A stretch of DNA of 34,503 nt from Deltaproteobacteria bacterium (GCA_019313605.1 JAFDAW010000004.1:1-34503), one strand, 5' to 3'; numbered from the stretch's first letter, positions 11,002-33,284 are shown. The notes: generated by a model not told the origin, from the sequence alone. Made by a program: numbers and translations.

Positions 11002-11445
11002 TCAGCGGAGGTCGGGGAACAACTCGACGCGCTGATCGGCTTTGGCCGCTTCTGCGACTTCGGCGAGATTCGAGTCGTTCGCCCAGTCTCGGAGGTGCTT
11101 GCTGAGTCGGCTCCACGTGCCGTGAAGTGGGCACGGAGTCACTTGATCGCAATTTCCCCAACCGAACGCGCAACGCCCTTCGGCTGGAAACGCGTCGATC
11201 GCGTCCAGGATTTCGATGAAGGGAATCTCGACAGGGGGGCGGGCGAGCGAAAAGCCTCCGCCCTGTCCTTTTCGCGAGACGAGCAGATTGGCGAGTACCA
11301 GGCGCCGCAGGATTTTGGACAGATAGGGGGCTGGAATTCCCGTAGCCTGCCCGAGATCGGTGGCGCGAATCTTTTTCCCCTCGGGGAGAATCGCAAGCGC
11401 CGACATGGCGCGAATCGCATATTCAGCGGTTTGGGAGATGAACAT
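11002..11445 (-). CDS. Rrf2-family transcriptional regulator (Fe-S type, NsrR/IscR-like), copy 1
   Basis: 147 aa from the ATG at 11445, preceded by GAGGAGcgacATG. wHTH signature MFISQTAEYAIRAM...YLSKILRRL. Cys cluster CAFGWGNCDQVTPCPLH (C-x6-C-x5-C-x2-H). The extra 17 N-terminal residues in the track ORF are Arg-rich and unlikely to be coding. Confidence 0.9.
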   Translation of the reverse strand: MFISQTAEYAIRAMSALAILPEGKKIRATDLGQATGIPAPYLSKILRRLVLANLLVSRKGQGGGFSLARPPVEIPFIEILDAIDAFPAEGRCAFGWGNCDQVTPCPLHGTWSRLSKHLRDWANDSNLAEVAEAAKADQRVELFPDLR

Positions 11446-11682
11446 GTCGCTCCTCGGCCGGCGCTGTACACGGCGCCGGATCCCTATCCCTACCATTATT
11501 GCACGCCAAAGTCATTAATGGACGTCGAAGTCGCCTGTTCCTGAACCGCCGTACGGCCGCACCTCCGCCAGCGCGCAATTGCCCCGAGTTCGGCGAGCCC
11601 CTACCTTGGTTTCCGATCCTCTTTTCTGGCCCCTCGTTCTGGGTGGCTAGGCCTTGACTGCCCCACCAGAGTTTTCTAAACA

Positions 11683-11710
11683 GACAAACAGATCTTTAGA
11701 TCCGTTTATC
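11683..11710. promoter_or_regulatory. Operator-like inverted repeat in the rrf2-1 / HCO divergent intergenic region
   Basis: GACAAACAGATC-TTTA-GATCCGTTTATC. Identical at 22 of 28 positions to the palindrome upstream of nirS (20321-20348). It lies just downstream of a possible promoter: TTGACT 11654-11659, 17-nt spacer, TAAACA 11677-11682. Confidence 0.5.
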
Positions 11711-11773
11711 GTTATCCGATATTGCGGGCCGAGGATCTGCTGTGCAGCACACCAACCCGCCTCGAGGATCGAG

Positions 11774-13219
11774 ATGAACGGTGCAAGGGAGTCCGCAATG
11801 CCCAACCGGCGCGTGCACGAATCGCAAAGTCGGTTGGAGCTGCAATGCGCGGGTCAGTGGTTGGGCCTCGCTCTCGGGGTGCTCACACTCGCGGGGCTGT
11901 TTTCGCTCGTCGTCGTCATCGGGCGAATGCCGCCTTTCGATCGCCTGGTCACCGATCCGCTCTTCTTCAAGCGCGGCCTCGTCGTGCACGTCAACCTCGC
12001 TCTGGTTGCGTGGTTCTACTCGTTCGTGGCTGCGTTGTTGTTCTTTCTGCCCGGCCGGTCGGCACCGAGCCGACTCGCCCGACACTCCGTGCACGTCAGC
12101 GCGCTCGGCGTCGCGATGATGTTGCTCGCGGCGGGCATGCCCGGAAGCCAACCCGTTCTCTCCAACTACATCCCGATGATCGATCACTGGTTGTTCGGCG
12201 TCGGGCAGGTCTTTTTTGCGGCGGGTGTCTTGACGAGTTTCATCAGCCGACGGCTTCTCACGGCGCGCACTGCAAGCGGCGGATTCTTCGAGATCCCGGG
12301 TGCCGCACAGATGGGCCTGCGGAGCACAGCAGTCGTGCTGGTACTGGCCGCGCTCACCTTTGCGATCACCTCCGTACGCATCACGCCGGACCTTCCCATC
12401 GACGTCTACTACGAGCTGCTCTTCTGGGGCGGCGGACACGTGCTGCAACTCTGCTGCAGCATCGCGATGATCTCGGTCTGGCTGATCCTGCTCCACTCAT
12501 CGTTGGGTCGCTCCCCGATCAGCGAAAGAGCTGCCGCAATCCTATTCGGTGCGATGGTGGTGCCGTGGCTCGCATCTCCGATCCTCGCAATGCTCGGAAC
12601 CTGGAGCCCGGGCTACCGCGACGGTTTCACCTTCCTGATGCGCTGGGCGATCTTTCCCGTGCTCGGCCTGTTCATGGTTGCGTGCTTTCGATTGCTGCTC
12701 GTGGAGTTTCGCGCCGGGCACATCGGCCTCCGGTCGCTCTCGGATCCGCGAATTTCCGGCTTTCTCGTCAGCGCGCTGCTGACGCTGCTCGGATTCGCGC
12801 TGGGTGCGGGCATTCGCGGCTCTAACACGATGATCCCCGCCCACTACCACGCCTCGATCGGCGGCATCACCGCGGCGTTCATGACCGTCACCTACGTGAT
12901 GTTGCGCGCGTTTGGATTTTCGATTTCAACGCGCCGGCTGCAGCGCGCGGCAGCCTGGCAGCCCGCCGTCTACGGAGTGGGGCAGATGGTCTTTGCGAGC
13001 GGCTTCGCGATCGCGGGGATCTACGGAATGTCGCGGAAGGCCTACGGCGCTGAGCAGGCCGGCCGCGGACTCGGCGAAAGCATCGGACTCGGCGTGATGG
13101 GCGTCGGCGGACTGGTCGCGGTCGGCGGCGGGCTTCTCTTCCTCGGGGTCGTTGCCAGCATCTGGCGGCAGGGATCCGAGAGGCGGATTCAAACACTCAA
13201 ACCGATCACCGAAGCCTGA
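11774..13219 (+). CDS. Divergent heme-copper-oxidase subunit-I-like membrane protein lacking the CuB His-His pair
   Basis: 481 aa from the ATG at 11774 (GAGGA 5 nt upstream; the ATG at 11798 is also possible). About 12 TM helices. HCO landmarks retained: helix II His (LVVHVNLALVAWF), helix VI His (LFWGGGHVLQ), helix X His pair (NTMIPAHYHASIGG). No HH motif at the helix VII position. Confidence 0.7.
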   Translation: MNGARESAMPNRRVHESQSRLELQCAGQWLGLALGVLTLAGLFSLVVVIGRMPPFDRLVTDPLFFKRGLVVHVNLALVAWFYSFVAALLFFLPGRSAPSRLARHSVHVSALGVAMMLLAAGMPGSQPVLSNYIPMIDHWLFGVGQVFFAAGVLTSFISRRLLTARTASGGFFEIPGAAQMGLRSTAVVLVLAALTFAITSVRITPDLPIDVYYELLFWGGGHVLQLCCSIAMISVWLILLHSSLGRSPISERAAAILFGAMVVPWLASPILAMLGTWSPGYRDGFTFLMRWAIFPVLGLFMVACFRLLLVEFRAGHIGLRSLSDPRISGFLVSALLTLLGFALGAGIRGSNTMIPAHYHASIGGITAAFMTVTYVMLRAFGFSISTRRLQRAAAWQPAVYGVGQMVFASGFAIAGIYGMSRKAYGAEQAGRGLGESIGLGVMGVGGLVAVGGGLLFLGVVASIWRQGSERRIQTLKPITEA

Positions 13220-13230
13220 AGGAGGTACGG

Positions 13231-13386
13231 ATGAGCTCGAAAGAGCCTGACGGAAAAAAACCGCTGCAGAAGCTGATGGACAACCCCTGGCTGCTGCTGG
13301 TCCTTGGAATCGTGATCCCCACCCTTTCCTACACGGTATGGGGTTGGATCGAATTGTGGCTGGTTCCGCCAGCCGCACTTCCCTGA
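13231..13386 (+). CDS. Small single-TM protein, candidate subunit IIa (CbaD-like) of the B-type HCO
   Basis: 51-aa ORF, below the track cutoff: MSSKEPDGKKPLQKLMDNPWLLLVLGIVIPTLSYTVWGWIELWLVPPAALP. GAAGGAGG lies 5-6 nt upstream of the ATG. Its position directly before subunit II matches the IIa-II-I order of ba3-type operons. Confidence 0.45.
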   Translation: MSSKEPDGKKPLQKLMDNPWLLLVLGIVIPTLSYTVWGWIELWLVPPAALP

Positions 13387-13402: not shown

Positions 13403-13927
13403 ATGAGTATCTACAACCCGCCCGAAGGATGGCTCCAAGCTCCGAAAGGGCCCGAACGCCTCTGGATCGGTCTCGCGCTCATCTGGTGCATCGTGATGTC
13501 GCTCGCGATGCCGTACTGGCACTTCTACGGCAAACAGAACGCTTCAGGCGAGTCCTACAGGGTTTCCGCCGTCGACTATGGCACCCGTGTCCGACAGTTC
13601 GTCGAAGCAAACACGGTCGGAGAGGCATCCGGCATCCCGATCGTCGAGATCCCGCCGGGCGGCGATGGCTATCTGCTCGCGCGGATGTGGAGCTTCTACC
13701 CGGTCATCAAGATGAAGATGGGGCAGACCTACCGCCTGCACATCTCATCGATGGACCTTCAACACGGCTTCTCGCTCCAGCCGCTGAACATGAACTTTCA
13801 GGTGCTACCGGGCTATGACCACGTGCTGACCATCACACCGACCAGCACGGGTGTCTTCCCGATCATCTGCAACGAATTCTGCGGAATCGGACATCACATG
13901 ATGACCGGCCGCATCATCGTCGAATAG
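13403..13927 (+). CDS. HCO subunit II with complete CuA centre
   Basis: 174 aa with one TM helix and a cupredoxin domain. All CuA ligands are present: H(GFS)-x34-CNEFCGIGHHMM, i.e. H...C-x3-C-x3-H-x2-M. GGAGG RBS. Confidence 0.9.
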   Translation: MSIYNPPEGWLQAPKGPERLWIGLALIWCIVMSLAMPYWHFYGKQNASGESYRVSAVDYGTRVRQFVEANTVGEASGIPIVEIPPGGDGYLLARMWSFYPVIKMKMGQTYRLHISSMDLQHGFSLQPLNMNFQVLPGYDHVLTITPTSTGVFPIICNEFCGIGHHMMTGRIIVE

Positions 13928-13936
13928 GAGACTCTC

Positions 13937-15658
13937 ATGGCCAGCGCAGTCGAAAGCCTTCCCATCTTGGGAAATCACCCGACCGATCAGGTCCGAGCCT
14001 GCGACACGACGACACTGCCGGTCTGTCTGACAGCCCAGAAGTTCATCAAGCTGCACGCGGTTGCAGCAGTCGTCTTCCTGTTGATCGGCGGAATCGCGGC
14101 GCTGACCCTCGGGCTGACCCGATGGCCCGCCGTGCATCTGCTCGACGCACAGTGGTATTACCGCCTGCTCACGCTCCACGGCCTCAACATGTTGATCTTC
14201 TGGATCCTCAATTTTGAGATTGCCGTGCTCTACTTTGCGTCAACCGTGCTCTTGAATACCCGGCTCGCTTCGAAGAGCGCCGCGTGGGTCGGTCTGGTGA
14301 TGATGACCGTCGGAGCGATCATGGTTGATGCGGCGATCTTCGGAGGCAAAAGCGATGTGCTGATGACCTCCTACGTTCCGCTCAAGGCGAGCCCGTGGTT
14401 CTACCTCGGGATCATCCTCGTCGCCGTCGGCACACTGGTGGGCGTGATCAACTACTTCGCGACGATCTACATCGCGAAGCGAGATCAAACCTACAAGGGT
14501 TCGGTGCCGCTGGTGGTCTTCGGCGCCACCGCCGCCGCAATCATCGCGGTCGTCACGCTGCTTCACGGTGCGGTCGTGATGATCCCGACCCTGCTTTGGT
14601 CAATGGGAATCATCGAAAATATCGATCCAGCGTGGTACCGGATTACCTGGTGGGGGCTCGGCCACATGTCCCAGCAGGTCAACGTCTGCGCGATGGTTTC
14701 GATCTGGTATCTGCTCGGAACGCTGACGGTCGGCTCCAAGCCCCTGAACCAGGCTGTTTGTCGCGGCGCCTTCGTGCTCTACATCCTCTTCATCAACGTC
14801 GCGTCCGCCCATCACCTGCTGGTGGACCCCGGAACCGGATCCGTCTGGAAGATCTGGAATACCTCCTACGCGATGTATCTCGCGGTGCTCGCGTCGATGA
14901 TTCACGGATTCACGGTGCCGGCTTCGATCGAAGTCGCGATGCGCAAGAAGGGCTTCAATCGGGGGCTCTTCGGTTGGCTTGCGAACGCCCCCTGGAGCAA
15001 TCCCGGATTCTCGGGCTTCTTCCTCTCACTCGTGATCTTCGGCTTCGGCGGAGGCATCACGGGCGTCACACTGGGCACGCAACAGATCAACATCATGGCC
15101 CACAACACGCTGCGCATCCCCGGTCACTTCCACGTGACGGTGGTCGGTGGCACGACGTTGGCCTTCATGGCGATCACCTACTACATCGTTCCGCTGATCT
15201 TCCAGAAGGACTTCTACGCAAAGGCACTGTGCCGAATCCAGCCCTATCTGTTTGGAGGTGGGATCACCTTGATGGCGCTCGGCATGTCGTTTGCGGGTTC
15301 CTATGGCGTGCCGCGCCGGCATTGGGACATCGAGTTCACGGGCGGCCTGTTCGCGACCGGATTCGACGCGGGTGCGCACGTGATGCTCGGGATCATGGGA
15401 GTCGGTGCGGTGATCGCGTTCCTCGGCTTGCTCCTCTACTGCCTGCTGGTCGTCGCGGCCGTGTTCTTCGGTCGCCCGGTCGAAGGCAAGCCGATGGAGG
15501 CCTGGAACGAAGAGCCGCGAGGACAGATCGACGCCGAGGAGGTGGACGAGCACAAGACGCCGGGCACCCTGGTAATCGTGTTCGTCTTCCTGACAGCGTT
15601 TGCGGTCTACTACTTCGCGAATTGGATGTGGCTCAGCGATCTCTGGGAGGTTCGCTAG
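13937..15658 (+). CDS. B-family-like heme-copper oxidoreductase subunit I with Tyr->Gln at the cross-link position (NO-reductase-like)
   Basis: 573 aa. Landmarks: H81 (LTLHGLNMLIFW), CuB H243 in WWGLGHMSQQVNV, H292/H293 (ASAHHLLVDPG), H397/H399 (HNTLRIPGHFHVTVVGG), and GLFGWLANAPWSNPGF as in ba3-type enzymes. The residue at H+4, Tyr in O2 reductases, is Gln247 (14675-14677). Confidence 0.9.
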   Translation: MASAVESLPILGNHPTDQVRACDTTTLPVCLTAQKFIKLHAVAAVVFLLIGGIAALTLGLTRWPAVHLLDAQWYYRLLTLHGLNMLIFWILNFEIAVLYFASTVLLNTRLASKSAAWVGLVMMTVGAIMVDAAIFGGKSDVLMTSYVPLKASPWFYLGIILVAVGTLVGVINYFATIYIAKRDQTYKGSVPLVVFGATAAAIIAVVTLLHGAVVMIPTLLWSMGIIENIDPAWYRITWWGLGHMSQQVNVCAMVSIWYLLGTLTVGSKPLNQAVCRGAFVLYILFINVASAHHLLVDPGTGSVWKIWNTSYAMYLAVLASMIHGFTVPASIEVAMRKKGFNRGLFGWLANAPWSNPGFSGFFLSLVIFGFGGGITGVTLGTQQINIMAHNTLRIPGHFHVTVVGGTTLAFMAITYYIVPLIFQKDFYAKALCRIQPYLFGGGITLMALGMSFAGSYGVPRRHWDIEFTGGLFATGFDAGAHVMLGIMGVGAVIAFLGLLLYCLLVVAAVFFGRPVEGKPMEAWNEEPRGQIDAEEVDEHKTPGTLVIVFVFLTAFAVYYFANWMWLSDLWEVR

Positions 15659-15691: not shown

Positions 15692-16630
15692 ATGGCAACT
15701 TCCCCCAAACGACTCGAGGTTTTTCAAAACCTTCTGACGGGAGCCACCTTTCCGGCGTTCGCGCTGTCGCTGCTCGCCTGCTGGGTGATCTTCTTGATCG
15801 CAATGCTGCTGGCTCCCTCCAGCGCAGCTGGTCTCGGTGCGTTTGCGGAGGACTTTCGGATCTGGTGCTTCGGCTACGACCCGGCAACGGGTCGCACCGA
15901 AGTCGGCTACGTGATGTCGATGATCCTTCCGCAGTTCATGATCGCGGGCTTCATCGCGTACTTCTGGTGGGAGCCGCTGCGTGAACTCGCGAATCAGCCG
16001 CTGCGCATCGCCCGCCACTTTGGAGCGGCAGCACTCCTGGTAGCGGCTTCATCCGTCGGCTTTGCGCTCACCGCAGAACAGTCGCTGAAGGGGGAGCTCC
16101 CGTTTCCCGCCGAAGAATTGCGCACCGCCTACGAGGCGCCGCAATTCGCGCTCACCAATCAGCTCCGAGAAACGGTCGGTCCCGCTGCGTTCGAGGGCAA
16201 CGTGGTCGTTCTCACGGCCGTCTACGCCTCCTGCCCTCACACCTGCCCCCTGATCTTGACGCAAGCCAAGGCGGCGATCGCGGAGCTCTCGCCCGAGGAA
16301 CGCGCAGACCTGCGGGTGATCGCGGTGACGATGGATCCGGAGAACGATTCTCCCGATGTGCTCCAGAAGCTGGCAGAAAATCACGGCATGGAATCGCCGC
16401 TCTACAATCTAGTGACGGGTGCTTCCGCCGACGTGGAGCCACTGCTCGATCGGATGGAGATCGCGCGCCAGCGCGACCCCGAAACCGGTATCATCAACCA
16501 CGCGAATCTATTCCTCCTGATCGATCGAGAAGGGCGAGTTGCGTATCGACTCGGACTGGGCGAACGCCAACAGCGTTGGCTCACATCCGCTCTCAGGGTT
16601 CTGCTCCGCGAAGAAGCGGCATCGGGGTAA
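15692..16630 (+). CDS. SCO1/SenC-family copper chaperone with a ~130-aa three-TM N-terminal extension
   Basis: 312 aa. Thioredoxin-fold domain with CPHTCP (CxxxC) and a downstream conserved His (IINHANLFLLID). Three hydrophobic helices precede it. Confidence 0.8.
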   Translation: MATSPKRLEVFQNLLTGATFPAFALSLLACWVIFLIAMLLAPSSAAGLGAFAEDFRIWCFGYDPATGRTEVGYVMSMILPQFMIAGFIAYFWWEPLRELANQPLRIARHFGAAALLVAASSVGFALTAEQSLKGELPFPAEELRTAYEAPQFALTNQLRETVGPAAFEGNVVVLTAVYASCPHTCPLILTQAKAAIAELSPEERADLRVIAVTMDPENDSPDVLQKLAENHGMESPLYNLVTGASADVEPLLDRMEIARQRDPETGIINHANLFLLIDREGRVAYRLGLGERQQRWLTSALRVLLREEAASG

Positions 16631-16633
16631 GAG

Positions 16634-18793
16634 ATGGCACCGCCGGATACCACGCGCACGCCACTCAGCGTAGAATCGACGGCGGGTGGCGCGGGCGCGC
16701 GGCCATCGTCCGTGCGGGGTGTCGAGGGCGCACCAAACGATTTCGAATCGCCGCCGAGTGAGTCGCCGCTGCCCAAAGGAATCCTGCGTCAACTCGACAA
16801 GGGCTTCATCTATCTCGATCGCCTGCTCGCGCGCTGCGTCTCCAGCTCGCTGAACCCGATGCTTCACACCGGCGCGATCGCGGTGACAGCACTGTTCATC
16901 GCGACGGTGTCGGGCATCGTGCTGCTGATCTGGTACAAGCCCAGCGTCCACATGGCCTACGAATCGCTCGATGCAATGTCGCGATCTCCGCTCGGGTCGG
17001 GCCTGGTGCGTTCACTGCATCGATACAGCTCCGATGCGGCGGTTCTCTTCGGCTTAATCCACGCGTTTCGGGTTTTCTTCGAGCGGCGCTTCGACGGTGC
17101 GCGTTGGCTCGCGTGGGTGACCGGGGCGATCATGATGGGGCTGCTCTGGTTCATCGGCTGGACGGGCTATTGGTTGGTCTGGGATCTGCGCGCCCAATCC
17201 GTCGCGGTCGGCAGCGCAAAGATGTTGGACGTGCTCCCCATATTCACCGATCCGCTGAGTCGCTCCTTCGTTACGGATGAGAGCGTCAATTCCCTGCTCT
17301 TCTTCGTGGTCTTCTTCATCCACATGATCATTCCGCTCGCGATGGTGGTCGTGATGTGGCTGCACATCACCCGCCTCGCGCGCGCCCGCTACCTGACCAG
17401 CAAGGTGATGACGATCTGGGTGGTGGCACTGTTGCTCTTGATCTCCATCGCGTATCCGGCGACCAACGAAGCCCCCGCTCAGATGACTGCAAATGCCGAA
17501 TACTTCACGATGGATTGGTGGTACCTCTTCCCGATGCCGCTCATCGATCGGCTGAGTGCGGGAGCACTCTGGGGTCTGCTGATCGTCGGAAGCGCGGTCT
17601 CACTCGCGATCCCCTGGTTGTTGGCGAAAAAGCGCAAGCGGCCCGCTTCGGTGGTCGCCTCGCGCTGCAACGAATGCAAGAAGTGTTATACGGATTGCCC
17701 TTACGAGGCGATCGAAATGGTCGCGCGCACGGACGGAAACGACCGCTACCTCACCCAGGCTTCGGTGATCGATTCCAAGTGCGTCGCGTGTGGCATTTGC
17801 GCGGGATCGTGTGACACGGTGGGGATCGGTCTGGACTGGTTCTCGAGCATCGAGCAGCGAAGACTCATCGAATCGTGGATGAAGCAGGCCGAGCAAGCGC
17901 GAGAAACCGTTCACCTCGCTTTCGTCTGCGCGGAATCCGCGGGGGCGAAACTCGAGATCGATCCAGTCACCGGCCTCTGTGCCGAACTTCCCGGCTACCG
18001 CGCGCTGCGCGTTCCGTGTGCGGGTTGGGTCCAGCCGCTGATGATCGAACGTGCAATCCGACAGGGAGCCAGCGGCGTGTTGGTCGTAAGCTGCCCGCCC
18101 GATCGATGCATGTACCGCGAAGGCGCCGAGTGGGAGCGCCAGCGAATCGAGGGCCTCCGCGAACCCGCACTGCGCGTCGACAAGCTCGAGCCTGGGCAGG
18201 TACAGCTCGTAGCGCTCGATCGCACGCGCAAGGCGGACCTGATTCGCACGGCAGAGCGTTTTCGCACGGGCGAAGAGTCGCTTCAGACCCCGAGCCGCCC
18301 GCGCGCTCTCCACGCGGTGTCGGCAACGGTCTTGCTGATCGCATGTGCGGGAATACTCGGCCTGGGGAGTGATTTCGGTTACACGGCGCCCGGCATCGAC
18401 GGTTCCGAGTTCGTCGTGAGCCTGAAGCACCCGGGCCTGGCCAGCGAGAACTGCCGTGACCTCACGCCGGAAGAACTCGCGTCGACACCCATCCATATGC
18501 GCAAGGAGCGTGTCTGCGAGCGGATGCGGCCACCCGTTCGCCTTCGAGTGACCATCGATGGCACCACTGCACTCGAGACCAGCATTGCGCCGTCGGGCAT
18601 CTGGGAGGACGGCAACAGCGTGGCCGTCGAACGAATTCCGGTCGAGCCGGGTGAGCACCGCGTGAGCGTGGCGATCGGCGAGACAGTGGACCCCGACGAG
18701 TGGAACTTCGGCGAGGAGCAGACGATCACCTTTACCGATGAATCCCGCCGCGTCGTCGTCTTCGACCGCGTCGCGGGCTTCACCTGGCACTGA
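16634..18793 (+). CDS. Fusion protein: di-heme cytochrome b + 2x[4Fe-4S] ferredoxin + MvhD/FlpD-like domain + TM helix + C-terminal domain of unknown function
   Basis: 719 aa. Cytochrome b signatures: two H-x13-H pairs (SLHRYSSDAAVLFGLIH and IHMIIPLAMVVVMWLH), WFIGWTGYWLVW, and a PEWYF-like MDWWYLFP. Then CNECKKCYTDCP ... CVACGICAGSC. Then an MvhD/FlpD-like segment (FVCAESAG...VPCAGWV...VVSCPPDRCMY). Then TM AVSATVLLIACAGILGLG and a ~150-aa tail. Confidence 0.8.
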   Translation: MAPPDTTRTPLSVESTAGGAGARPSSVRGVEGAPNDFESPPSESPLPKGILRQLDKGFIYLDRLLARCVSSSLNPMLHTGAIAVTALFIATVSGIVLLIWYKPSVHMAYESLDAMSRSPLGSGLVRSLHRYSSDAAVLFGLIHAFRVFFERRFDGARWLAWVTGAIMMGLLWFIGWTGYWLVWDLRAQSVAVGSAKMLDVLPIFTDPLSRSFVTDESVNSLLFFVVFFIHMIIPLAMVVVMWLHITRLARARYLTSKVMTIWVVALLLLISIAYPATNEAPAQMTANAEYFTMDWWYLFPMPLIDRLSAGALWGLLIVGSAVSLAIPWLLAKKRKRPASVVASRCNECKKCYTDCPYEAIEMVARTDGNDRYLTQASVIDSKCVACGICAGSCDTVGIGLDWFSSIEQRRLIESWMKQAEQARETVHLAFVCAESAGAKLEIDPVTGLCAELPGYRALRVPCAGWVQPLMIERAIRQGASGVLVVSCPPDRCMYREGAEWERQRIEGLREPALRVDKLEPGQVQLVALDRTRKADLIRTAERFRTGEESLQTPSRPRALHAVSATVLLIACAGILGLGSDFGYTAPGIDGSEFVVSLKHPGLASENCRDLTPEELASTPIHMRKERVCERMRPPVRLRVTIDGTTALETSIAPSGIWEDGNSVAVERIPVEPGEHRVSVAIGETVDPDEWNFGEEQTITFTDESRRVVVFDRVAGFTWH

Positions 18794-18803
18794 GGAGTTT
18801 GAG

Positions 18804-19724
18804 ATGAGCGCCGATTCTCGGGTTCACATCGCACTCGGTGATGCTCGCAGCCGCTTCGGTTGGCTCGCGCGCGTGCAAGATTACGTCGCGCTCACCCGGC
18901 CGCGGGTCTTGACGCTGGTTCTCTTCACCGCGCCGCCCGCGATGGTGATGGGCCACGAAGGCTGGCCGAGCGCGGCTGTGATCCTCGGCGTCATCTTCGG
19001 GGCTGCACTGATCGGCGCGGGCTGCGGGGCCCTGAACGCGAGTTGGGAACGCGATCGGGATCGTCGAATGGCGCGAACCGAGAACCGGCCGCTGCCGGCC
19101 GGGCGCCTGACACTGAGCGAAGCGGTGATTTTCGGCTTCGCAATTTCAGCGCTCGGCGTCGCAGTGCTATTCGCGGCCGGCGGTTGGCTACCGGCCGCAA
19201 TCGGCGTCTTGACGCTCGTCCACTACCTGTTGATCTACACCATCTGGCTCAAGCCGCGCACGCCGCAAAACATCGTGATCGGTGGGGCAGCCGGCGCCGC
19301 AAGCCCGTTGATCGCAGATGCGGCAATCGATGGCCGGCTCGGCCTCTGGGGTTTCGTTCTCTTCCTGATCGTGTTCGTCTGGACGCCGCCGCACTTCTGG
19401 GCAATTGCCTTGTACCGCAAGCGGGAGTACGCGGCTGCGGGCTTCCCGATGCTGCCCAATGTGCTGGGCGACCGCGCAACCCGCAAACACATGCTCGCCT
19501 ATGCGATCGGCCTGATCCCGGTCGCGCTGATCCCGTGGATCGGCGGCGAACTCAGCTTCGTTTACGCATTGACGGCGGTGATTGCAGGGGGCGGCTTCAT
19601 CGCGAGCATTGCGCGCTCGATGCGCGTCGAATCCCCCAAACAGGATCGGCGCGTCTTCAAGGTTTCGATCTTCTTCCTCTTCGCGATCTTCGCAGAGATG
19701 CTCGTCGAGTTGACGCTGCGTTGA
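18804..19724 (+). CDS. ctaB: Protoheme IX farnesyltransferase (heme O synthase)
   Basis: 306 aa from the ATG at 18804 (GAGGAG RBS). UbiA-family motifs are present (NASWERDRDRRMARTENRPLPAG; WTPPHFWAIALYRKREY). The track start at 18738 overlaps the upstream gene. Confidence 0.9.
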   Translation: MSADSRVHIALGDARSRFGWLARVQDYVALTRPRVLTLVLFTAPPAMVMGHEGWPSAAVILGVIFGAALIGAGCGALNASWERDRDRRMARTENRPLPAGRLTLSEAVIFGFAISALGVAVLFAAGGWLPAAIGVLTLVHYLLIYTIWLKPRTPQNIVIGGAAGAASPLIADAAIDGRLGLWGFVLFLIVFVWTPPHFWAIALYRKREYAAAGFPMLPNVLGDRATRKHMLAYAIGLIPVALIPWIGGELSFVYALTAVIAGGGFIASIARSMRVESPKQDRRVFKVSIFFLFAIFAEMLVELTLR

Positions 19725-22274: not shown

Positions 22275-22922
22275 ATGGTTTCCAAAAGCGTTTCTGACCG
22301 CAGGCTGATCCGCCCGTTTCTCGGCCGCTCCGCGATGGGCTTTGCTCTTCTGGTACTCGCGTTTCTGATTCCGAATTGGGCTACCGCCAATGGACAGCAC
22401 GCTTTCGTTGGCTACCAGAAGTGCAGGACCTGCCATAAGAAGACAGAGATCGGCAATCAATACGGCGCCTGGCTCGAATCCAGACACGCGAAGGCCTACG
22501 AGACGCTCGGAACCGAGAAGGCGAAGAAGTGGGGCGCCGAAGCCGGCGTAGACAATCCCCAAACTGACGACCGCTGCATCAAGTGTCATTCGACGGCTCA
22601 CGGCGTTCCGGACGAAAGGGTCTCGAGGAAATTCGATCGGACGGCCGGCGTGCAATGCGAGTCGTGCCACGGCGCGGGTAAGGACTACAAGAAGAAGAAG
22701 ATCATGATGGACCGCGACAAGGCGCTCGAGAAAGGCCTGATCATACCGACCGCGGAACTCTGCACCGGATGCCACAACGACGAGAGTCCCGCATGGGATG
22801 AGAAGGCCTACACGCTGACCGATGGAAGCACGGCCGGATTCGACTTCGAGCAGGCAGTGAAAAAGATCGCTCACCCAGTTCCCGAAGGCTACGATCCAAG
22901 CGCTACTGGAGGGGCTGACTGA
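22275..22922 (+). CDS. Periplasmic tetraheme c-type cytochrome (c554-like family)
   Basis: 215 aa. AGGAGG RBS, signal peptide, four CxxCH motifs (CRTCH, CIKCH, CESCH, CTGCH). Confidence 0.8.
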   Translation: MVSKSVSDRRLIRPFLGRSAMGFALLVLAFLIPNWATANGQHAFVGYQKCRTCHKKTEIGNQYGAWLESRHAKAYETLGTEKAKKWGAEAGVDNPQTDDRCIKCHSTAHGVPDERVSRKFDRTAGVQCESCHGAGKDYKKKKIMMDRDKALEKGLIIPTAELCTGCHNDESPAWDEKAYTLTDGSTAGFDFEQAVKKIAHPVPEGYDPSATGGAD

Positions 22923-22924
22923 GA

Positions 22925-23545
22925 ATGGCGGGCGACGATCACGATTTAGACGGCGATCGTCACCCTCCCATTCAGCTCACGATCTGGGCGGTGATCGCTC
23001 TCGCGGTCGTCGTCATCGCGGGGCTCTTCACGGTTCGACTCGAGCACCAGCCCGAGACGACACGCGACTATCCGCCCCGGCCGCAGATCGCGGACGGCGA
23101 GGCGATCCTGCTGCCTGCTCCCGAGATCCTCGATGACTATCTGCCCTGCAACGACTGCCATGACGATGTGACACGAGAAGAGGGGCCGGTCCCGCGCGAA
23201 CTCGAATTCGAACACGAAGACACGAAGCTCGCGCATGGAAACCTCTGGTGCCGGCACTGCCACGACGCCGTGGACCCGAACAACCTCCGCCTGGCTGACG
23301 CGTCTTTGGTTCCTTTCGAAGACTCCTGGAAGCTCTGCACCCAATGTCACGGCAAGAAGCTTCCGGAGTGGCGCGCGGGGGTTCATGGCAAGGTGACCGG
23401 AAATTGGAGGGGCGATCGGGAGTACGTGACCTGCGTCTTCTGCCACGAGCCCCATACACCGCCGTTCGTGCCCATCGAAGGAGAGCCGAGGCCCAGGCGC
23501 CCCGAGGAAATCGTATTGCGGACAGAGCCCCTAGGAGAAGAGTGA
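22925..23545 (+). CDS. Membrane-anchored tetraheme c-type cytochrome (cytochrome c3/ActA/NrfB-like partner of the NrfCD-type module)
   Basis: 206 aa. N-terminal TM helix LTIWAVIALAVVVIAGLFTV. Four CxxCH motifs (CNDCH, CRHCH, CTQCH, CVFCH). It lies immediately upstream of the NrfC-like gene. Confidence 0.75.
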   Translation: MAGDDHDLDGDRHPPIQLTIWAVIALAVVVIAGLFTVRLEHQPETTRDYPPRPQIADGEAILLPAPEILDDYLPCNDCHDDVTREEGPVPRELEFEHEDTKLAHGNLWCRHCHDAVDPNNLRLADASLVPFEDSWKLCTQCHGKKLPEWRAGVHGKVTGNWRGDREYVTCVFCHEPHTPPFVPIEGEPRPRRPEEIVLRTEPLGEE

Positions 23546-23546
23546 A

Positions 23547-24415
23547 GTGGGAATTTTCAGACGGAACAAAGAAGCGCGAGCGCCGAAAGATGGCGCACCG
23601 AAGGAAAGCTCGCGCCGCGACTTCCTCAAGACAGCTGCGACCGTCGGAGCGGGAGCCGCGGTTGGCGCGCCCGCCATCGCGAGCGCGATGGATTTCGACT
23701 TCGAAACCTTCATGCAAAAGAACTTCCGCGAGCTCTCGGATGAGGAGCTGCAAGGGGTCATCGAGCGACTCGAGCGCAAGTACTCGGATAAGTACGGCAA
23801 GGACGTCAGCATGTCGGCCATCGGTCCGATGGACGGCGTGCTCTACGGCTACGGGTTGGACATCTCACGCTGCATCGGTTGCCGGAAATGCGTGTCCGCG
23901 TGCGTGGTTATTACGAGCACAAGGAGGTTCCCGCAGAGGGGAAGTTCTACGTCCCGATCGCCTGCCAGCAATGCGAGGATGCGCCGTGTACTACGGTCTG
24001 CCCGACTGGCGCGACCTGGCAAGAATCCGACGGGATCATCGTGATCGACTACGACTGGTGCATTGGGTGTCGCTACTGCATGGCGGCGTGCCCCTACGGC
24101 GCGCGCCACTTCAACTGGGGCGAGCCCAATCTTCCGGCTGAAGACGTCAACCCGAACATGCACATCCTTGGCAACAAGCCGCGCACGCGAGGCGTGGTCG
24201 AGAAATGCACGTTCTGTATCCAACGGGTGCGCGAGGGCCGCATGCCGGCTTGCCACGAAGCCTGCCCGGTCGGCGCGCGCAAGTTCGGAAACCTGCTCGA
24301 TCCGGATAGCGAAATCCGATACCTGCTGGACCACAAGCGGACCTTCGTATTGAAAGCAGAGCTCGAGACCCACCCGAAGTTCTTCTATTTCTGGGGAACG
24401 GAGGGGCGGAGTTGA
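23547..24415 (+). pseudogene. NrfC/PsrB/ActB-like Tat-exported 4x[4Fe-4S] protein with a frame disruption near 23904-23908
   Basis: The frame-0 ORF (23547-24044) gives the Tat signal SRRDFLKTAATVGAGAAV and cluster 1, [11 protein letters not shown]. The remaining clusters ([30 protein letters not shown]...CHEACP) are in the frame-2 ORF (23879-24415). Total length is 869 nt (3n+2), so one nucleotide appears to be missing. Confidence 0.8.
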
Positions 24416-24461
24416 GGCAGCAGCGAGAATCCGTTCGAACGGCGCGACTTCGAGGGGCATC

Positions 24462-32516: not shown

Positions 32517-33176
32517 GTGCAAACAAGAGATCGAGTACCGCAGGGAATGATTGCAACGCTGCTCATCGCCATGTGCAGTCTACTCGTCGCCTCGAGCGGG
32601 CAACTCATCAATTCTGAGGGGCAGGCCGGTAGCGAGAAACCGCTTCCGATCCACGATGATGTGGGTGGAGAGTTCTCTGCGCCGAGCAGTCTCGGGCGCG
32701 ATGTGAGTCTGTCCGAATTTCGCGACAAGGTTGTACTGCTGTTTTTCGGTTACACGAGTTGCCAGGACGTCTGTCCGGCGACACTCGCGCACCTTCAAGC
32801 GCTCGTGCGCGACCTCGGAAAAGCATCTGACGGCGTACAGGTCCTGCTCGTGACCGTGGATCCGGAGAACGACACCGCCGATCACCTCGAGCAATACCTC
32901 GCCCGCTTCGACACGCGATTCGTGGGATTGACCGGAACGCGCAAAGAAGTCGATCGCATCGCAAACCTGTTCATGGTGAAACACGATCGAAGCCACGGCA
33001 TCGAGGTGAGCAATGAGTACAACCGCGCCAAGACCTTCACCGACCACTCCTATCTCTATTCCCACTCGCAGCAGATCTACCTGCTCGACAAAGCTGGCCG
33101 GACGCGGGCGCTGTTCTTCACGGGATCGCCATTGGAAGAAATGCAAGACGCGGTAATCGCATTGCTGAACGAATAG
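32517..33176 (+). CDS. SCO1/SenC-family copper chaperone
   Basis: 219 aa. GGAGG RBS before the GTG, N-terminal anchor/signal, FFGYTSCQDVCP (CxxxC) and a downstream His region (DHSYLYSHSQQIYLLD). Confidence 0.85.
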   Translation: MQTRDRVPQGMIATLLIAMCSLLVASSGQLINSEGQAGSEKPLPIHDDVGGEFSAPSSLGRDVSLSEFRDKVVLLFFGYTSCQDVCPATLAHLQALVRDLGKASDGVQVLLVTVDPENDTADHLEQYLARFDTRFVGLTGTRKEVDRIANLFMVKHDRSHGIEVSNEYNRAKTFTDHSYLYSHSQQIYLLDKAGRTRALFFTGSPLEEMQDAVIALLNE

Positions 33177-33284
33177 AAGGGTGTCGCCCAACGACCTCCG
33201 GGTCTTGGTACTCGTGATGGGGGCTGTGTGCGAATGCGCAGACCCATCGTTGACGGAACGTAAGAGACCTAAACGGAAGGGACG

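What the first reader, a model, noticed from the sequence alone, without database searches (positions are those of the whole stretch)
16634..18793. Unusual fusion: di-heme cytochrome b + two [4Fe-4S] + MvhD/FlpD-like domain + extra TM + periplasmic tail, with no Rieske or c1 partner
The N-terminal ~330 aa is a bc1/b6f-type cytochrome b with both H-x13-H heme-ligand pairs and a PEWYF-like motif. No Rieske protein or cytochrome c1/f gene is nearby. After a KKRKRP stop-transfer it continues into a 2x[4Fe-4S] ferredoxin motif and an MvhD/FlpD-type domain, which is normally a soluble electron-transfer module of Hdr/Mvh systems. One more TM helix and a ~150-aa tail with two Cys follow. By topology inference, the FeS domains would be cytoplasmic and the tail periplasmic. 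A quinone-pool cytochrome b wired to cytoplasmic FeS domains inside an NOR/SCO/ctaB operon has no role I recognise. Candidate roles are a quinol-linked electron input or output for the HCO, or a reductant supply for copper or heme maturation.
Basis: partly seen in the sequence, partly recalled or inferred. Interest (0 to 1): 0.8.

Follow-up and report, generated by a model that had tools for sequence, protein, structure and literature searches.

The report
Rieske-less cytochrome b–FeS partner of eNOR
This is a real, widespread but uncharacterised membrane protein that wires a bc1-type two-haem cytochrome b to cytoplasmic iron-sulfur clusters and sits almost only in gene clusters for the eNOR type of nitric oxide reductase, so it probably links NO reduction to the cell's quinone and cytoplasmic redox pools.

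Summary
ORF 16634-18793 (719 aa) is an intact fusion of five parts:
- a bc1/b6f-type cytochrome b with all four haem histidines
- two [4Fe-4S] motifs
- an MvhD/FlpD [2Fe-2S] domain
- a seventh transmembrane helix
- a periplasmic beta-sandwich

It is not an assembly artefact and it is not rare. At least 1238 protein clusters and 329 species genomes from many phyla carry it, full length, with every ligand conserved down to about 27% identity.

It is almost always the last gene of one conserved module: a degenerate HCO paralogue, CuA subunit II, subunit I, a 3-TM Sco, then this protein, often followed by CtaB. Subunit I carries the eNOR-diagnostic Gln. No Rieske protein or cytochrome c1 lies nearby in any locus examined.

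In a Nitrospinota/Nitrospirota branch a NuoF-like NAD(P)H flavoprotein is translationally coupled to it.

Databases call it "hydrogenase iron-sulfur subunit", a misnomer taken from the FlpD domain. Only a 2026 preprint discusses relatives, and only as a hypothesis.

My favoured mechanism is inferred, not shown. I read it as the low-potential arm of a Rieske-less quinol-oxidising module attached to eNOR. A reductant-export or maturation role with Sco remains a serious rival.

The parts
16634..18793 (+). Whole gene: cytochrome b / 2x[4Fe-4S] / MvhD-FlpD / TM7 / beta-sandwich fusion, 719 aa
   Evidence: ORF found. Domains. Full-length homologues. AF2 model has pLDDT 83.9 and pTM 0.80.
16835..17377 (+). 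Cytochrome b four-helix core (aa 68-248, helices A-D). Haem ligands are H129/H230 (p-side haem) and H143/H244 (n-side haem).
   Evidence: Pfam PF00033, E 7.7e-18. Matches b6 chains in the PDB, E 6.6e-18. The His and Gly residues are invariant. Foldseek hits bc1/b6f cytochrome b, E about 1e-6.
17402..17623 (+). Helices E and F with the p-side ef loop (aa 257-330). Carries the Qo-like motif M-D-W-W-Y (aa 293-297, nt 17510-17524).
   Evidence: AF2 helices 257-273 and 309-330. D294 invariant and W295 >=90% conserved. bc1 cytochrome b aligns over 300-370 columns.
17627..17644 (+). KKRKRP basic stretch on the cytoplasmic face after helix F
   Evidence: Read from the sequence. 6 K/R and no acidic residues in aa 329-345.
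17645..17827 (+). Ferredoxin-type domain with two [4Fe-4S] motifs (aa 338-398)
   Evidence: Pfam Fer4 families. All eight Cys invariant. Resembles the C-terminal ferredoxin domain of HdrA and NuoI/TYKY.
17915..18265 (+). MvhD/FlpD-type domain (aa 428-544), predicted [2Fe-2S] bound by C432, C462, C487 and C492
   Evidence: Pfam PF02662, E 9.4e-16. C462, C487 and C492 align with the conserved MvhD cysteines. Foldseek hit to the MvhD-related chain 8rvu_F, TM 0.73.
18302..18382 (+). Seventh transmembrane helix (aa 557-583)
   Evidence: Hydropathy. AF2 helix 557-580.
18389..18790 (+). Periplasmic beta-sandwich domain (aa 586-719) with the co-varying pair C607/C628
   Evidence: AF2 pLDDT 90.6, all-beta. 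No significant PDB fold match; best is a CARDB domain, E 1.7e-3, TM 0.36. Encoded as a separate gene in L085 and L088.
15692..16630 (+). Sco/SenC copper protein with an unusual 3-TM N-terminal extension. Its stop codon lies 3 nt before the start of the target gene.
   Evidence: Pfam SCO1-SenC. CxxxC and His invariant in 38 partner sequences. Found directly upstream in 71-73 of 75 loci.
13937..15658 (+). HCO subunit I of the eNOR type (G-H-M-S-Q-Q-V-N: Gln at the position of ba3 Tyr237)
   Evidence: Alignment to T. thermophilus ba3, E 1e-42. The motif is present in every partner subunit I examined: 72 hits carry Gln at this position, including L001-L002 and the distant loci L083-L086. The Gln diagnostic comes from PMC8756737 Table A4.
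13403..13927 (+). HCO subunit II with a complete CuA motif (H...C-N-E-F-C-G-I-G-H-H-M-M)
   Evidence: Pfam COX2. Motif read from the translation.
13231..13386 (+). 51-aa single-helix protein between the paralogue and subunit II. Possibly a subunit IIa-like protein.
   Evidence: ORF. A 51-aa gene sits at the same place in L001.
11654..13219 (+). Degenerate HCO subunit-I paralogue. It keeps both haem ligand sites but has lost the H-H pair of the CuB/FeB site.
   Evidence: Weak Pfam COX1 hit. Pairwise alignment with subunit I. Conserved in 52 of 54 loci. The HH pair is also lost in the distant loci.
18804..19724 (+). Haem o synthase CtaB. The ORF opens at 18738; the likely start is Met at 18804.
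   Evidence: NCBIfam NF003349, 281 bits, above its cutoff. Lies directly downstream of the target in 33 of 73 loci.
11002..11496 (-). Divergent Rrf2-family regulator (the family that contains NsrR) upstream of the operon
   Evidence: Pfam Rrf2, E 9e-25.

Best explanation
WHAT IT IS (high confidence, about 0.85). It is a genuine, conserved, single-chain transmembrane redox wire that belongs to eNOR-type nitric oxide reductase gene clusters.

The membrane part is a bc1/b6f-type cytochrome b with helices A-F and two bis-His haems stacked across the membrane. It has an intact-looking p-side Qo-type pocket with an invariant Asp in a PDWY-like ef-loop motif. It has no Rieske protein, no cytochrome c1/f, no haem cn cysteine and no Qi-site residues.

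After helix F the same chain continues in the cytoplasm. There it carries two [4Fe-4S] clusters and an MvhD-type [2Fe-2S] cluster. It then crosses the membrane once more and ends in a periplasmic beta-sandwich.

HOW IT WORKS (favoured model, inferred, about 0.35-0.4).
- Menaquinol is oxidised at the Qo-like site.
- One electron is taken on the periplasmic side by the copper centres next to it (the dedicated 3-TM Sco and/or CuA of eNOR subunit II) and ends in NO reduction.
- The other electron runs through the p-side haem, the n-side haem, 2x[4Fe-4S] and [2Fe-2S] into the cytoplasm, where a soluble partner collects it.
- In the Nitrospinota/Nitrospirota branch that partner is a co-translated NuoF-like NAD(P)-binding flavoprotein. 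In the window's branch it is not encoded nearby and is presumably a general ferredoxin- or flavoprotein-level carrier.

In effect this is a Q-cycle-like bifurcation whose low-potential arm exits to the cytoplasm instead of to a Qi site. The very high potential of NO/N2O would pay for it.

SHOWN: domain order, ligands, topology logic, conservation, synteny, and the NuoF-like linkage in one branch.

INFERRED: quinol binding, direction of flow, the copper acceptor, and any physical complex with eNOR.
For: 1. Architecture and ligands are conserved from 96% to about 27% identity. The models are confident and match bc1/b6f cytochrome b and MvhD structures.
2. P-side residues are among the most conserved in the family: G175, G178, Y179, W183, D184, D294, W295. 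This argues for a functional quinone pocket rather than a bare electron wire.
3. The n-side lacks the b6 Cys35 equivalent; His78 aligns to that position and Thr79 follows it. The FeS chain starts right after helix F.
4. Gene-set linkage is very strong. The Sco gene lies upstream in 71-73/75 loci, eNOR subunit I in 61/63, subunit II in 58/61 and the HCO-like paralogue in 52/54. Every partner subunit I examined carries the eNOR Gln. The same gene set persists in distant branches even when strand and order change.
5. No Rieske box is found in the window or in 91 loci.
6. A NuoF-like gene overlaps the target's stop codon and sits between two paralogues in L084, L090 and L091.
7. A 2026 preprint on Ferrigenium straubiae independently proposes that eNOR-adjacent cytochrome b/FeS(/FAD/NADH) proteins form a quinol:NAD+ oxidoreductase energised by NO reduction. 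It reports them in the proteome of autotrophic Fe(II)-oxidising denitrifying cultures.
8. The lineages that carry the NuoF-like partner are named Nitrospirota/Nitrospinota. From general knowledge these, like Ferrigenium, contain lithoautotrophs that must push electrons uphill to NAD(P)+.
Against: - No high-potential one-electron cofactor is known to sit where the Rieske cluster would. A Sco or CuA domain acting as Qo-site acceptor has no precedent.
- The periplasmic beta-sandwich shows no clearly conserved redox ligand set and no fold match.
- In the window's own branch no cytoplasmic acceptor gene recurs within 10 kb.
- The window also encodes a multihaem c / NrfC-like / NrfD-like module next to NirS, which could already feed periplasmic carriers.
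- The gene always sits at the 'assembly' end of the cluster, next to Sco and CtaB. That fits a maturation role as well.
- One lineage (L087) pairs it with a canonical A-family oxygen reductase rather than eNOR.
- R. marinus eNOR was purified as an active NOR, and the main text of that paper does not mention this protein.
- Quinone binding, cofactor content and direction of electron flow are all untested.
Confidence: 0.4

Rival explanations
1. Reductant export. The protein works like a NOX/FRE/STEAP or MsrQ-type transmembrane di-haem reductase. Cytoplasmic reductant (ferredoxin or NAD(P)H level) enters at the MvhD/[4Fe-4S] end. It crosses the membrane on the two haems and reduces periplasmic targets bound to the 3-TM Sco: Cu(II) to Cu(I), or the CxxxC and CuA cysteines. 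Its role would then be to mature CuA of eNOR under micro-oxic conditions, or to feed eNOR directly as a quinone-independent NO detoxification route.
For: - The Sco gene and the target are contiguous and near-overlapping in almost every locus.
- The gene lies between the two assembly genes Sco and CtaB in the window's branch.
- The organism has a second, ordinary Sco elsewhere in the window, so the 3-TM Sco is cluster-specific.
- The L087 copy is attached to an A-family oxidase, so the common denominator is an HCO with CuA and haem a, not NO chemistry.
- A NuoF-like NAD(P)H input module is present in one branch.
- It is established that Sco and CuA cysteines need a periplasmic reductant, for example TlpA in Bradyrhizobium (general knowledge).
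Against: - A pure wire would not need the subunit-IV-like helices E/F or the strongly conserved Qo-type pocket.
- Thousands of CuA oxidases mature without such a five-cofactor protein.
- The periplasmic Cys pair is dispensable in several members.
- Burning NAD(P)H on NO makes little sense in lithoautotrophs, yet there the gene is duplicated and paired with the NuoF-like gene.
Confidence: 0.27
2. Stand-alone quinone-coupled redox loop. The protein is a membrane anchor plus FeS subunit of a Nar/QFR/Qmo/DsrMK-like enzyme. It exchanges both electrons between the menaquinone pool (p-side site) and a cytoplasmic partner. It would be merely co-regulated with eNOR and not physically or energetically coupled to it.
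For: - The layout is the same as in di-haem SQR/QFR, NarGHI, HdrDE and QmoABC: a cytoplasmic FeS chain, two transmembrane haems and a p-side quinone site (general knowledge).
- The FeS+MvhD module is homologous to the C-terminus of HdrA2.
- Orphan copies exist without any HCO within 10 kb (L070, L043).
- Rieske-less b6-like cytochromes such as ExtP are the best NCBIfam match.
Against: - The linkage to the eNOR gene set is too tight and too ancient for simple co-regulation. It survives rearrangement and divergence to about 30% identity.
- No recurrent catalytic partner gene is found in the window's branch.
- Quinol-to-NAD(P)+ transfer through this geometry is uphill both in redox terms and electrically unless it is coupled to something.
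Confidence: 0.2
3. Haem A supply. eNOR uses haem As in both sites, and these clusters contain CtaB but no CtaA. On this view the protein supports or replaces the haem O to haem A conversion, as an electron partner of CtaA or as an oxygen-independent route.
For: - eNOR contains only modified haem a, and many other eNOR operons carry CtaA.
- No CtaA-like family recurs within 10 kb in the 80+ loci analysed here.
- CtaB is directly downstream in 33 of 73 loci.
- The F. straubiae preprint raises the problem of oxygen-dependent haem A synthesis under anoxia.
Against: - No catalytic motif fits methyl-to-formyl oxidation. There is no radical-SAM, molybdenum or flavin site.
- A Qo-type pocket is far too small for haem O.
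- CtaA may simply be encoded elsewhere; F. straubiae has two copies.
- Whole genomes were not examined.
Confidence: 0.05
4. Artefact. The ORF is a chimeric assembly or a frameshift fusion of separate genes.
For: Lineages exist in which the last helix and beta-sandwich are a separate gene.
Against: - At least 120 full-length homologues at 51-96% identity come from independent projects, and a further 120 come from a distant branch.
- 329 species genomes encode a relative; the 80 loci examined align near full length (query residues up to about 60 to 716-719) in all but L043.
- Alignments run without gaps across both junctions.
- The split variants have overlapping stop and start codons typical of natural gene fission.
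Confidence: 0.01

Closest known systems
Cytochrome b6 plus subunit IV (b6f) and cytochrome b of bc1 complexes
   Same: It shares the four-helix di-haem core with H-x13-H pairs and the glycine pattern. It also shares the cd-loop W-D motif, helices E/F and an ef-loop acidic motif of the PDWY type. These are its best sequence and fold matches.
   Different: It has no Rieske or c1/f partner, no haem cn cysteine and no Qi-site residues. Pfam does not detect the C-terminal cytochrome b domain. An FeS module of about 230 aa follows helix F, and a periplasmic beta-sandwich follows the last helix.
C-terminal ferredoxin domain of HdrA plus MvhD (HdrA2 and QmoB-type fusions; Mvh-Hdr structures such as 5ODC)
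   Same: Residues 338-543 match HdrA2 positions 572-764 (E 2e-21). They also match the PDB chains of the HdrA ferredoxin domain and of MvhD. The cysteine ligands are conserved.
   Different: There is no FAD-binding HdrA core, no HdrBC and no hydrogenase. The module is fused to a membrane cytochrome and occurs in aerobic or denitrifying bacteria.
Di-haem membrane-anchored FeS oxidoreductases (NarGHI, B. subtilis/W. succinogenes SQR/QFR, HdrDE, QmoABC, DsrMK)
   Same: The working principle is the same: a cytoplasmic FeS chain, two haems across the membrane and a p-side quinone site (general knowledge).
   Different: The anchor here has a bc1/b6f fold rather than a NarI/HdrE/SdhC fold. Everything is in one polypeptide, and no catalytic subunit is attached.
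Rieske/cytochrome b complexes of anammox and NC10 bacteria with an NAD(P)-binding FeS oxidoreductase subunit (clade G; reviewed in PMC5600118)
   Same: A bc-type cytochrome b is combined with a cytoplasmic FeS/NAD(P) module. A bifurcation towards NAD(P)+ has been proposed for them.
   Different: Those complexes keep a Rieske protein and c-type cytochromes, and the oxidoreductase is a separate large subunit. Here the FeS module is fused and Rieske is absent. A NuoF-like partner occurs in one branch only.
eNOR-adjacent 'bc1 chain C-like' proteins of Ferrigenium straubiae (bioRxiv 10.64898/2026.01.22.701106)
   Same: They are cytochrome b + [Fe-S] (+FAD/NADH) proteins encoded in an eNOR operon together with haem o synthase, sco1 and a 'scaffold' protein. 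The preprint offers the same functional hypothesis.
   Different: The preprint calls them rather unusual. Here the family is found in 329 species genomes of many phyla. I could not align the Ferrigenium sequences, so their membership in the same family is presumed and not shown.
Rieske-less b6-like cytochromes of Geobacter Cbc/Ext clusters (NCBIfam NF040969, ExtP)
   Same: ExtP is the best-scoring NCBIfam model for the haem domain (104.6 bits, E 6e-30). It is likewise a b6-type cytochrome without a Rieske protein.
   Different: The score is far below the family cutoff of 290. ExtP is a 205-aa four-helix protein that works with periplasmic multihaem cytochromes, not with fused cytoplasmic FeS domains.

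Membership tests
Cytochrome b of Rieske/cytochrome b (bc1/b6f) complexes | Four-helix bundle with two bis-His haem sites (H-x13-H in helices B and D) and the paired glycines in helices A and C | tested here: met
   H129/H143, H230/H244, G80/G94 and G164/G178 are invariant in 39 sequences. Pfam PF00033 scores 65 bits, above its cutoff of 27. Supported by PDB and Foldseek matches.
Cytochrome b of Rieske/cytochrome b (bc1/b6f) complexes | Qo-site ef-loop motif (PEWY/PDWY) on a subunit-IV-like helix pair | tested here: inconclusive
   The motif here is [M/I/L]-D-W-[W/F]-Y, with D294 invariant and W295 >=90% conserved. The Pfam C-terminal cytochrome b domain is not detected. Quinol binding was not tested.
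Cytochrome b of Rieske/cytochrome b (bc1/b6f) complexes | Rieske [2Fe-2S] protein encoded with it and docking at the Qo site | tested here: not met
   No C-x-H-x-G-C / C-x-C-H-G box in any six-frame ORF of the window or of 91 loci. No recurrent Rieske-like neighbour.
Cytochrome b of Rieske/cytochrome b (bc1/b6f) complexes | Cytochrome c1/f (or di-/tetrahaem c) subunit in the same operon | tested here: not met
   The conserved core contains none. The c-type cytochromes in the window belong to the NirS-side module and recur in only a few loci.
Cytochrome b of Rieske/cytochrome b (bc1/b6f) complexes | n-side quinone site (Qi His/Asp) or haem cn cysteine (CxGG) | tested here: not met
   b6 Cys35 aligns with His78, followed by Thr79. 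The position five residues after H244 is Ala/Arg rather than His.
MvhD/FlpD [2Fe-2S] electron-transfer subunit of Mvh-Hdr type systems | FlpD fold with the conserved cysteine ligands | tested here: met
   PF02662 scores 58 bits, above its cutoff of 22. C432, C462, C487 and C492 are invariant. Three of them align to the MvhD cysteines in 5ODC_D. Foldseek TM is 0.73 to 8rvu_F.
MvhD/FlpD [2Fe-2S] electron-transfer subunit of Mvh-Hdr type systems | Encoded with, or fused to, an HdrA-type flavoprotein or a [NiFe] hydrogenase | tested here: not met
   No Hdr, Mvh or hydrogenase genes are found in the window or in recurrent neighbours. The database name 'hydrogenase iron-sulfur subunit' is therefore misleading.
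HdrA2 / QmoB-type proteins | FAD-binding HdrA core preceding the ferredoxin + MvhD module | tested here: not met
   The NCBIfam HdrA2 match covers only profile positions 572-764 of 777 and scores 76 bits against a cutoff of 1100.
ExtP-type Rieske-less cytochrome b (NF040969) | Score at or above the curated equivalog cutoff | tested here: not met
   104.6 bits against a cutoff of 290.
eNOR family of haem-copper NO reductases (the neighbouring subunit I, not the target itself) | Gln in place of the cross-linked active-site Tyr, with haem and CuB/FeB histidines kept and a CuA subunit II | tested here: met
   G-H-M-S-Q-Q-V-N aligns with ba3 G-H-P-I-V-Y237. The H-H pair and H-x-H are kept. The same motif is present in every partner subunit I examined, 72 hits in all. 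The CuA motif is present. The diagnostic comes from PMC8756737. NO reductase activity was not tested.
sNOR cluster of ammonia oxidisers (norS-norY-senC-orf1) | orf1 (NE0681 in N. europaea) being a homologue of this protein | not testable with these tools
   The gene order II-I-Sco-orf1 is the same. However, the orf1 sequence could not be fetched, and no Nitrosomonas or Nitrosococcus names appeared among the listed hits.

The most novel reading that the evidence does not exclude
A Rieske-less, Q-cycle-like electron bifurcation. Menaquinol oxidised at the Qo-type pocket gives one electron to periplasmic copper (the 3-TM Sco and/or CuA) and on to NO at eNOR. The other electron is driven uphill through the two haems and three FeS clusters to reduce cytoplasmic NAD(P)+ or ferredoxin. 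NO respiration would then directly power reverse electron transport. This would be a new way for denitrifying lithoautotrophs (Fe(II) and nitrite oxidisers) and other eNOR carriers to make low-potential reductant. It would also be the first case of a copper protein standing in for the Rieske cluster.
Probability: 0.2. Interest if true: 0.9.

Novelty: new variant of a known kind. Interest (0 to 1): 0.65.

Why it matters
eNOR was only recently shown to be a true NO reductase, and it is widespread in the environment. How it receives electrons, whether it conserves energy and how it matures are all open questions.

This protein is a fixed partner of a large subset of eNOR clusters across many phyla. 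It carries five redox cofactors, is mislabelled as a hydrogenase subunit and has never been studied experimentally.

If it couples NO reduction to the quinone pool and to cytoplasmic NAD(P)/ferredoxin, three things follow:
- the energy budget assumed for this branch of denitrification and N2O production would change;
- a concrete candidate would exist for reverse electron transport in Fe(II)- and nitrite-oxidising autotrophs;
- it would be a living example of the 'cytochrome b as anchor of a cytoplasmic FeS dehydrogenase' stage proposed for the origin of bc complexes.

If instead it is a maturation reductase for Sco/CuA, it would be a new haem-based route for exporting reductant to the periplasm.

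Either way it is directly testable, because a cultured carrier exists (Fodinibius halophilus 2W32).

Tried and rejected
- Assembly chimera: rejected.
- Hydrogenase or Hdr subunit, as the databases name it: rejected because no Hdr, Mvh or hydrogenase genes lie nearby.
- Periplasmic tail as a copper chaperone, cupredoxin, PCuAC, cytochrome c or DsbD-like redox domain: not supported.
  - Foldseek finds no significant PDB match and only generic beta-sandwiches.
  - None of the 382 family sequences then held has a CxxCH outside the ferredoxin motif.
  - The Cys pair is lost together in several members, which suggests a structural disulfide.
- A recurrent cytoplasmic partner in the window's branch: all-vs-all clustering of 1091 ORFs from the loci found only the eNOR set, CtaB, NirS and haem d1 genes. 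The NuoF-like gene occurs only in L084, L090 and L091.
- CtaA in the neighbourhood: no recurrent candidate. Whole genomes could not be searched.
- sNOR identity of the HCO: rejected, because the diagnostic residue is Gln and not Asn.
- Whether the AOB 'orf1' is a homologue: could not be tested. I only learned that it is NE0681.
- Whether Rhodothermus marinus carries the gene: a protein search with a Rhodothermales homologue listed no R. marinus protein among the best 120 of 1908 hits. This is not conclusive.
- Orphan copies L070 and L043: their neighbours were uninformative.
- The supplements of the eNOR PNAS paper are not held, so its operon tables could not be checked.
- Model coordinates are not returned by the tools, so haem-to-cluster distances and the position of the beta-sandwich relative to the Qo site could not be measured.

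Full report
**1. The observation**

The six-frame ORF list shows one uninterrupted ORF at 16634..18793 (+) of 719 aa. Its ATG lies 3 nt after the stop of the upstream Sco gene.

Pfam finds three domains and nothing after residue 545:
- Cytochrome_B, aa 68-248, E 7.7e-18
- several 4Fe-4S dicluster families, aa 338-395
- FlpD, aa 428-544, E 9.4e-16

NCBIfam has no model that claims the protein. The best hits are all far below their cutoffs:
- ExtP, a Rieske-less b-type cytochrome: 104.6 bits against 290
- cytochrome b6
- the C-terminal 572-764 of HdrA2

Against solved structures, the N-terminus matches cytochrome b6 (E 6.6e-18) and bc1 cytochrome b. The middle matches the HdrA ferredoxin domain and NuoI/TYKY. 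Residues 451-504 match MvhD.

The only correction is that the tail is about 135 aa.

**2. It is a real and conserved gene, not an artefact**

- A search of 5.8 billion proteins returned at least 1238 clusters at E<=1e-5 (a capped count). The best 120 are mostly 680-728 aa with the same Pfam combination at 51-96% identity, apart from a few truncated entries. They come from JGI, ENA, NCBI and Logan assemblies.
- An exhaustive HMMER scan of 1.84 billion representatives found 443 clusters (at 50% identity) with E<=1e-30. Near-full-length matches go down to about 27% identity.
- A scan of one genome per species found relatives in 329 species. They include Myxococcota/'Deltaproteobacteria', Verrucomicrobiota, Planctomycetota, Rhodothermales, Balneolales, Calditrichota and Spirochaetota.
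- A distant branch lies in MAGs named Nitrospirota, Nitrospinota and Deltaproteobacteria.

Alignments across this range keep the following invariant:
- the four haem histidines and four packing glycines
- both CxxCxxCxxxC motifs
- four FlpD cysteines
- a set of p-side residues: G175, G178, Y179, W183, D184, D294

In some lineages the last helix plus the beta-sandwich is a separate gene that overlaps the stop codon of the first (L085/L086 and L088). That is natural gene fission and shows that the tail is an independent module.

**3. Structure and topology**

AlphaFold2 with a 39-sequence alignment gives pLDDT 83.9 and pTM 0.80. The predicted elements are:
- an amphipathic N-terminal helix
- helices A-F
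- a mixed alpha/beta FeS region
- a Rossmann-like FlpD region
- a long helix at 557-580
- an all-beta C-terminal domain

Only residues 1-42 are disordered. Foldseek aligns 300-370 columns to bc1 cytochrome b and about 200 to b6, and it finds MvhD-related chains.

K/R counts place loops BC and DE and the post-F segment in the cytoplasm. This agrees with the known bc1/b6f topology. The FeS clusters are therefore cytoplasmic and the tail periplasmic.

The tail modelled alone (pLDDT 90.6) is a beta-sandwich with no significant PDB neighbour. Its two cysteines are gained and lost together, which fits a structural disulfide in the periplasm.

At the position of the b6 haem-cn cysteine there is His78, followed by Thr79. 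No Qi-type His follows H244.

My inference is that the seventh helix corresponds to helix G of subunit IV/bc1, with the FeS module inserted in the F-G loop.

**4. Genomic context**

The window is a denitrification island. In order it encodes:
- a divergent Rrf2-family regulator
- an HCO-like paralogue, a 51-aa helix, a CuA subunit II, HCO subunit I, a 3-TM Sco, the target and CtaB
- NirS, a c554-like and another multihaem cytochrome, and a Tat-exported NrfC-like FeS protein with NrfD
- a NirN/F-like protein and NirDL
- a second ordinary Sco and a two-domain multicopper oxidase

Subunit I is closest to T. thermophilus ba3 (E 1e-42). It keeps all haem and CuB histidines but has Gln where ba3 has the cross-linked Tyr237. 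Published work uses exactly this Gln to define eNOR; sNOR and bNOR have Asn.

In the 80 best genome loci the order is conserved:

| Neighbour | Loci with it / loci with enough flanking sequence |
|---|---|
| Sco, directly upstream | 71-73 / 75 |
| eNOR subunit I | 61 / 63 |
| Subunit II | 58 / 61 |
| HCO-like paralogue | 52 / 54 |
| CtaB, directly downstream | 33 / 73 |
| NirS within 10 kb | 7 / 80 |

Every partner subunit I examined carries G-H-x-[ST]-Q-Q-[VI]-N; all 72 hits have Gln at the Tyr position.

The same six-gene set surrounds the distant homologues even where order or strand differ (L083, L084, L085, L088-L091). The exceptions are:
- two orphan copies, L070 and L043, with uninformative neighbours
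- L087, where the gene directly precedes a canonical A-family oxidase with HPEVY, subunits III and IV

No Rieske box occurs in the window or in any of the 91 loci. Clustering of all neighbouring ORFs found no other recurrent family. In particular there is no CtaA and no cytoplasmic partner in the window's branch.

In L084, L090 and L091 a NuoF-like protein (Complex1_51K, SLBB, NADH_4Fe-4S) overlaps the stop of the target. A second paralogue of the target follows it.

**5. Literature**

- The paper that established eNOR as an NO reductase does not mention this protein in its main text, and its supplements are not held.
- A Chloroflexi study lists one protein (RME88945.1) that combines cytochrome b6, DMSOR-beta-like and FlpD domains with a cytochrome c domain. 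It appears only as a table entry.
- A 2026 preprint on Ferrigenium straubiae describes the usual eNOR operon: II, I, haem o synthase, sco1 and a 'scaffold' protein of unknown function.
  - It calls two adjacent 'bc1 chain C-like' genes (cyt b + FeS + FAD + NADH, and cyt b + FeS) rather unusual.
  - It proposes a quinol:NAD+ oxidoreductase supercomplex energised by NO reduction.
  - It reports the proteins in a proteome from autotrophic Fe(II)-oxidising denitrifying culture.
- Reviews on bc-complex evolution describe anammox/NC10 cytochromes b that anchor NAD(P)-binding FeS subunits, but those complexes retain a Rieske protein.
- Ammonia oxidisers have the same gene order in their sNOR cluster (norS-norY-senC-orf1; orf1 is NE0681). 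I could not test whether orf1 is related.

**6. Mechanism**

What is shown:
- the cofactor-binding architecture
- its topology
- its near-obligate membership in the eNOR gene set
- the absence of Rieske, c1 and a Qi site
- the NuoF-like linkage in one branch

From these I am confident that the protein moves electrons across the membrane between a p-side site and the cytoplasm, in the service of an HCO.

I favour a bioenergetic reading, at about 0.35-0.4. Quinol is oxidised at the conserved Qo-like pocket. The high-potential electron goes to periplasmic copper (Sco/CuA) and on to NO. The low-potential electron goes through the haems and FeS clusters to a cytoplasmic acceptor. My reasons are:
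- the p-side pocket is as conserved as the haem ligands;
- the n-side quinone site is replaced by the FeS chain;
- transfer from quinol to NAD(P)+ through this geometry is uphill both electrically and in redox terms unless a very strong acceptor pays for it;
- the NuoF-linked, duplicated version sits in lineages named after lithoautotrophic groups.

The main rival, at about 0.27, is reductant export to Sco/CuA for maturation or direct feeding of eNOR. It is supported by the constant adjacency to Sco, the position among assembly genes and the A-family case L087.

Other readings are less likely:
- a Nar/Qmo-like stand-alone redox loop, about 0.2
- a haem A-related role, about 0.05
- an artefact, about 0.01

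**7. Novelty and verdict**

The parts are known, and so is the principle: a di-haem anchor plus an FeS chain. The combination is not described in the curated families that I could search. That combination is a bc-type cytochrome b with a Qo-like pocket, fused to an HdrA/MvhD-type module and a periplasmic domain, without Rieske and dedicated to eNOR.

It is mis-annotated as a hydrogenase subunit and has only been touched on in a preprint. I class it as a new variant of a known kind, with interest 0.65. A specialist in respiratory chains or denitrification would find it surprising. It also makes the energy coupling and electron supply of eNOR directly testable.

Noticed in passing
window 11654-13219 (+); also upstream of subunit II in 52 of 54 related loci: This is a degenerate HCO subunit-I paralogue, about 26% identical to the eNOR subunit I. 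It keeps the three haem-ligating histidines and one CuB/FeB histidine but has lost the H-H pair (SAHH becomes LASP). It could therefore bind two haems but no binuclear centre. It is probably the 'eNOR scaffold protein of unknown function' of the F. straubiae preprint.
   Followed up: partly
window 15692-16630 (+): The Sco protein of the operon has an N-terminal extension of about 140 aa with three predicted TM helices. Its first periplasmic loop carries a partly conserved F-R-I-x-C-F-x-Y motif. The CxxxC and His copper ligands are invariant. A second, ordinary single-anchor Sco lies at 32517-33176.
   Followed up: partly
loci L084 12102-13403, L090 10121-11431, L091 7772-9154: A NuoF-like flavoprotein gene (Complex1_51K, SLBB, NADH_4Fe-4S) overlaps the stop codon of the cytochrome b-FeS gene. 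A second paralogue of that gene follows it. This arrangement is seen only in the Nitrospirota/Nitrospinota-named branch.
   Followed up: partly
locus L087 8001-13078: One family member sits directly upstream of a canonical A-family cytochrome c oxidase operon (HPEVY tyrosine, COX3, COX4). A decayed Sco-like remnant with its cysteines replaced lies just upstream. The link is therefore to CuA/haem-a HCOs in general and not strictly to eNOR.
   Followed up: partly
loci L085 10001-12255 and L088 8001-9990: These are natural split versions. A 485-532 aa cytochrome b-FeS-FlpD gene is followed by an overlapping 179-219 aa gene that encodes the last helix and the beta-sandwich.
   Followed up: yes
window 22275-25706 (+): Downstream of NirS lies a c554-like tetrahaem protein, a second multihaem cytochrome, a Tat-signal NrfC-like FeS protein and an NrfD-like membrane protein. 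Together they look like a quinol dehydrogenase module that could feed periplasmic electron carriers. The same set is found in L001.
   Followed up: no
window 13231-13386 (+): A 51-aa single-helix ORF lies between the HCO paralogue and subunit II. A gene of the same size occupies the same position in L001. It may be a subunit IIa-like component, as in ba3 oxidases.
   Followed up: no
window 32517-34418 (+): An ordinary Sco is followed by a two-domain multicopper oxidase of NirK size (377 aa, runs close to the window end). The island may therefore encode both NirS and a copper nitrite reductase-like protein.
   Followed up: no
window 17600-18790 (-): A 396-aa antisense ORF overlaps the gene. It is one of many long spurious ORFs in this 61.5% GC sequence. 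Nothing suggests that it is coding.
   Followed up: no
database annotation of homologues: NCBI names the family 'hydrogenase iron-sulfur subunit' or 'cytochrome b N-terminal domain-containing protein'. JGI names it 'coenzyme F420-reducing hydrogenase delta subunit/...'. These names come from the FlpD domain alone and are misleading.
   Followed up: yes
literature: N. europaea NE0681-NE0684: The sNOR cluster of ammonia oxidisers has the same order: subunit II, subunit I, senC, orf1. orf1 is NE0681 and rises 2.2-fold under O2 limitation. Whether orf1 is related to this family could not be tested.
   Followed up: partly
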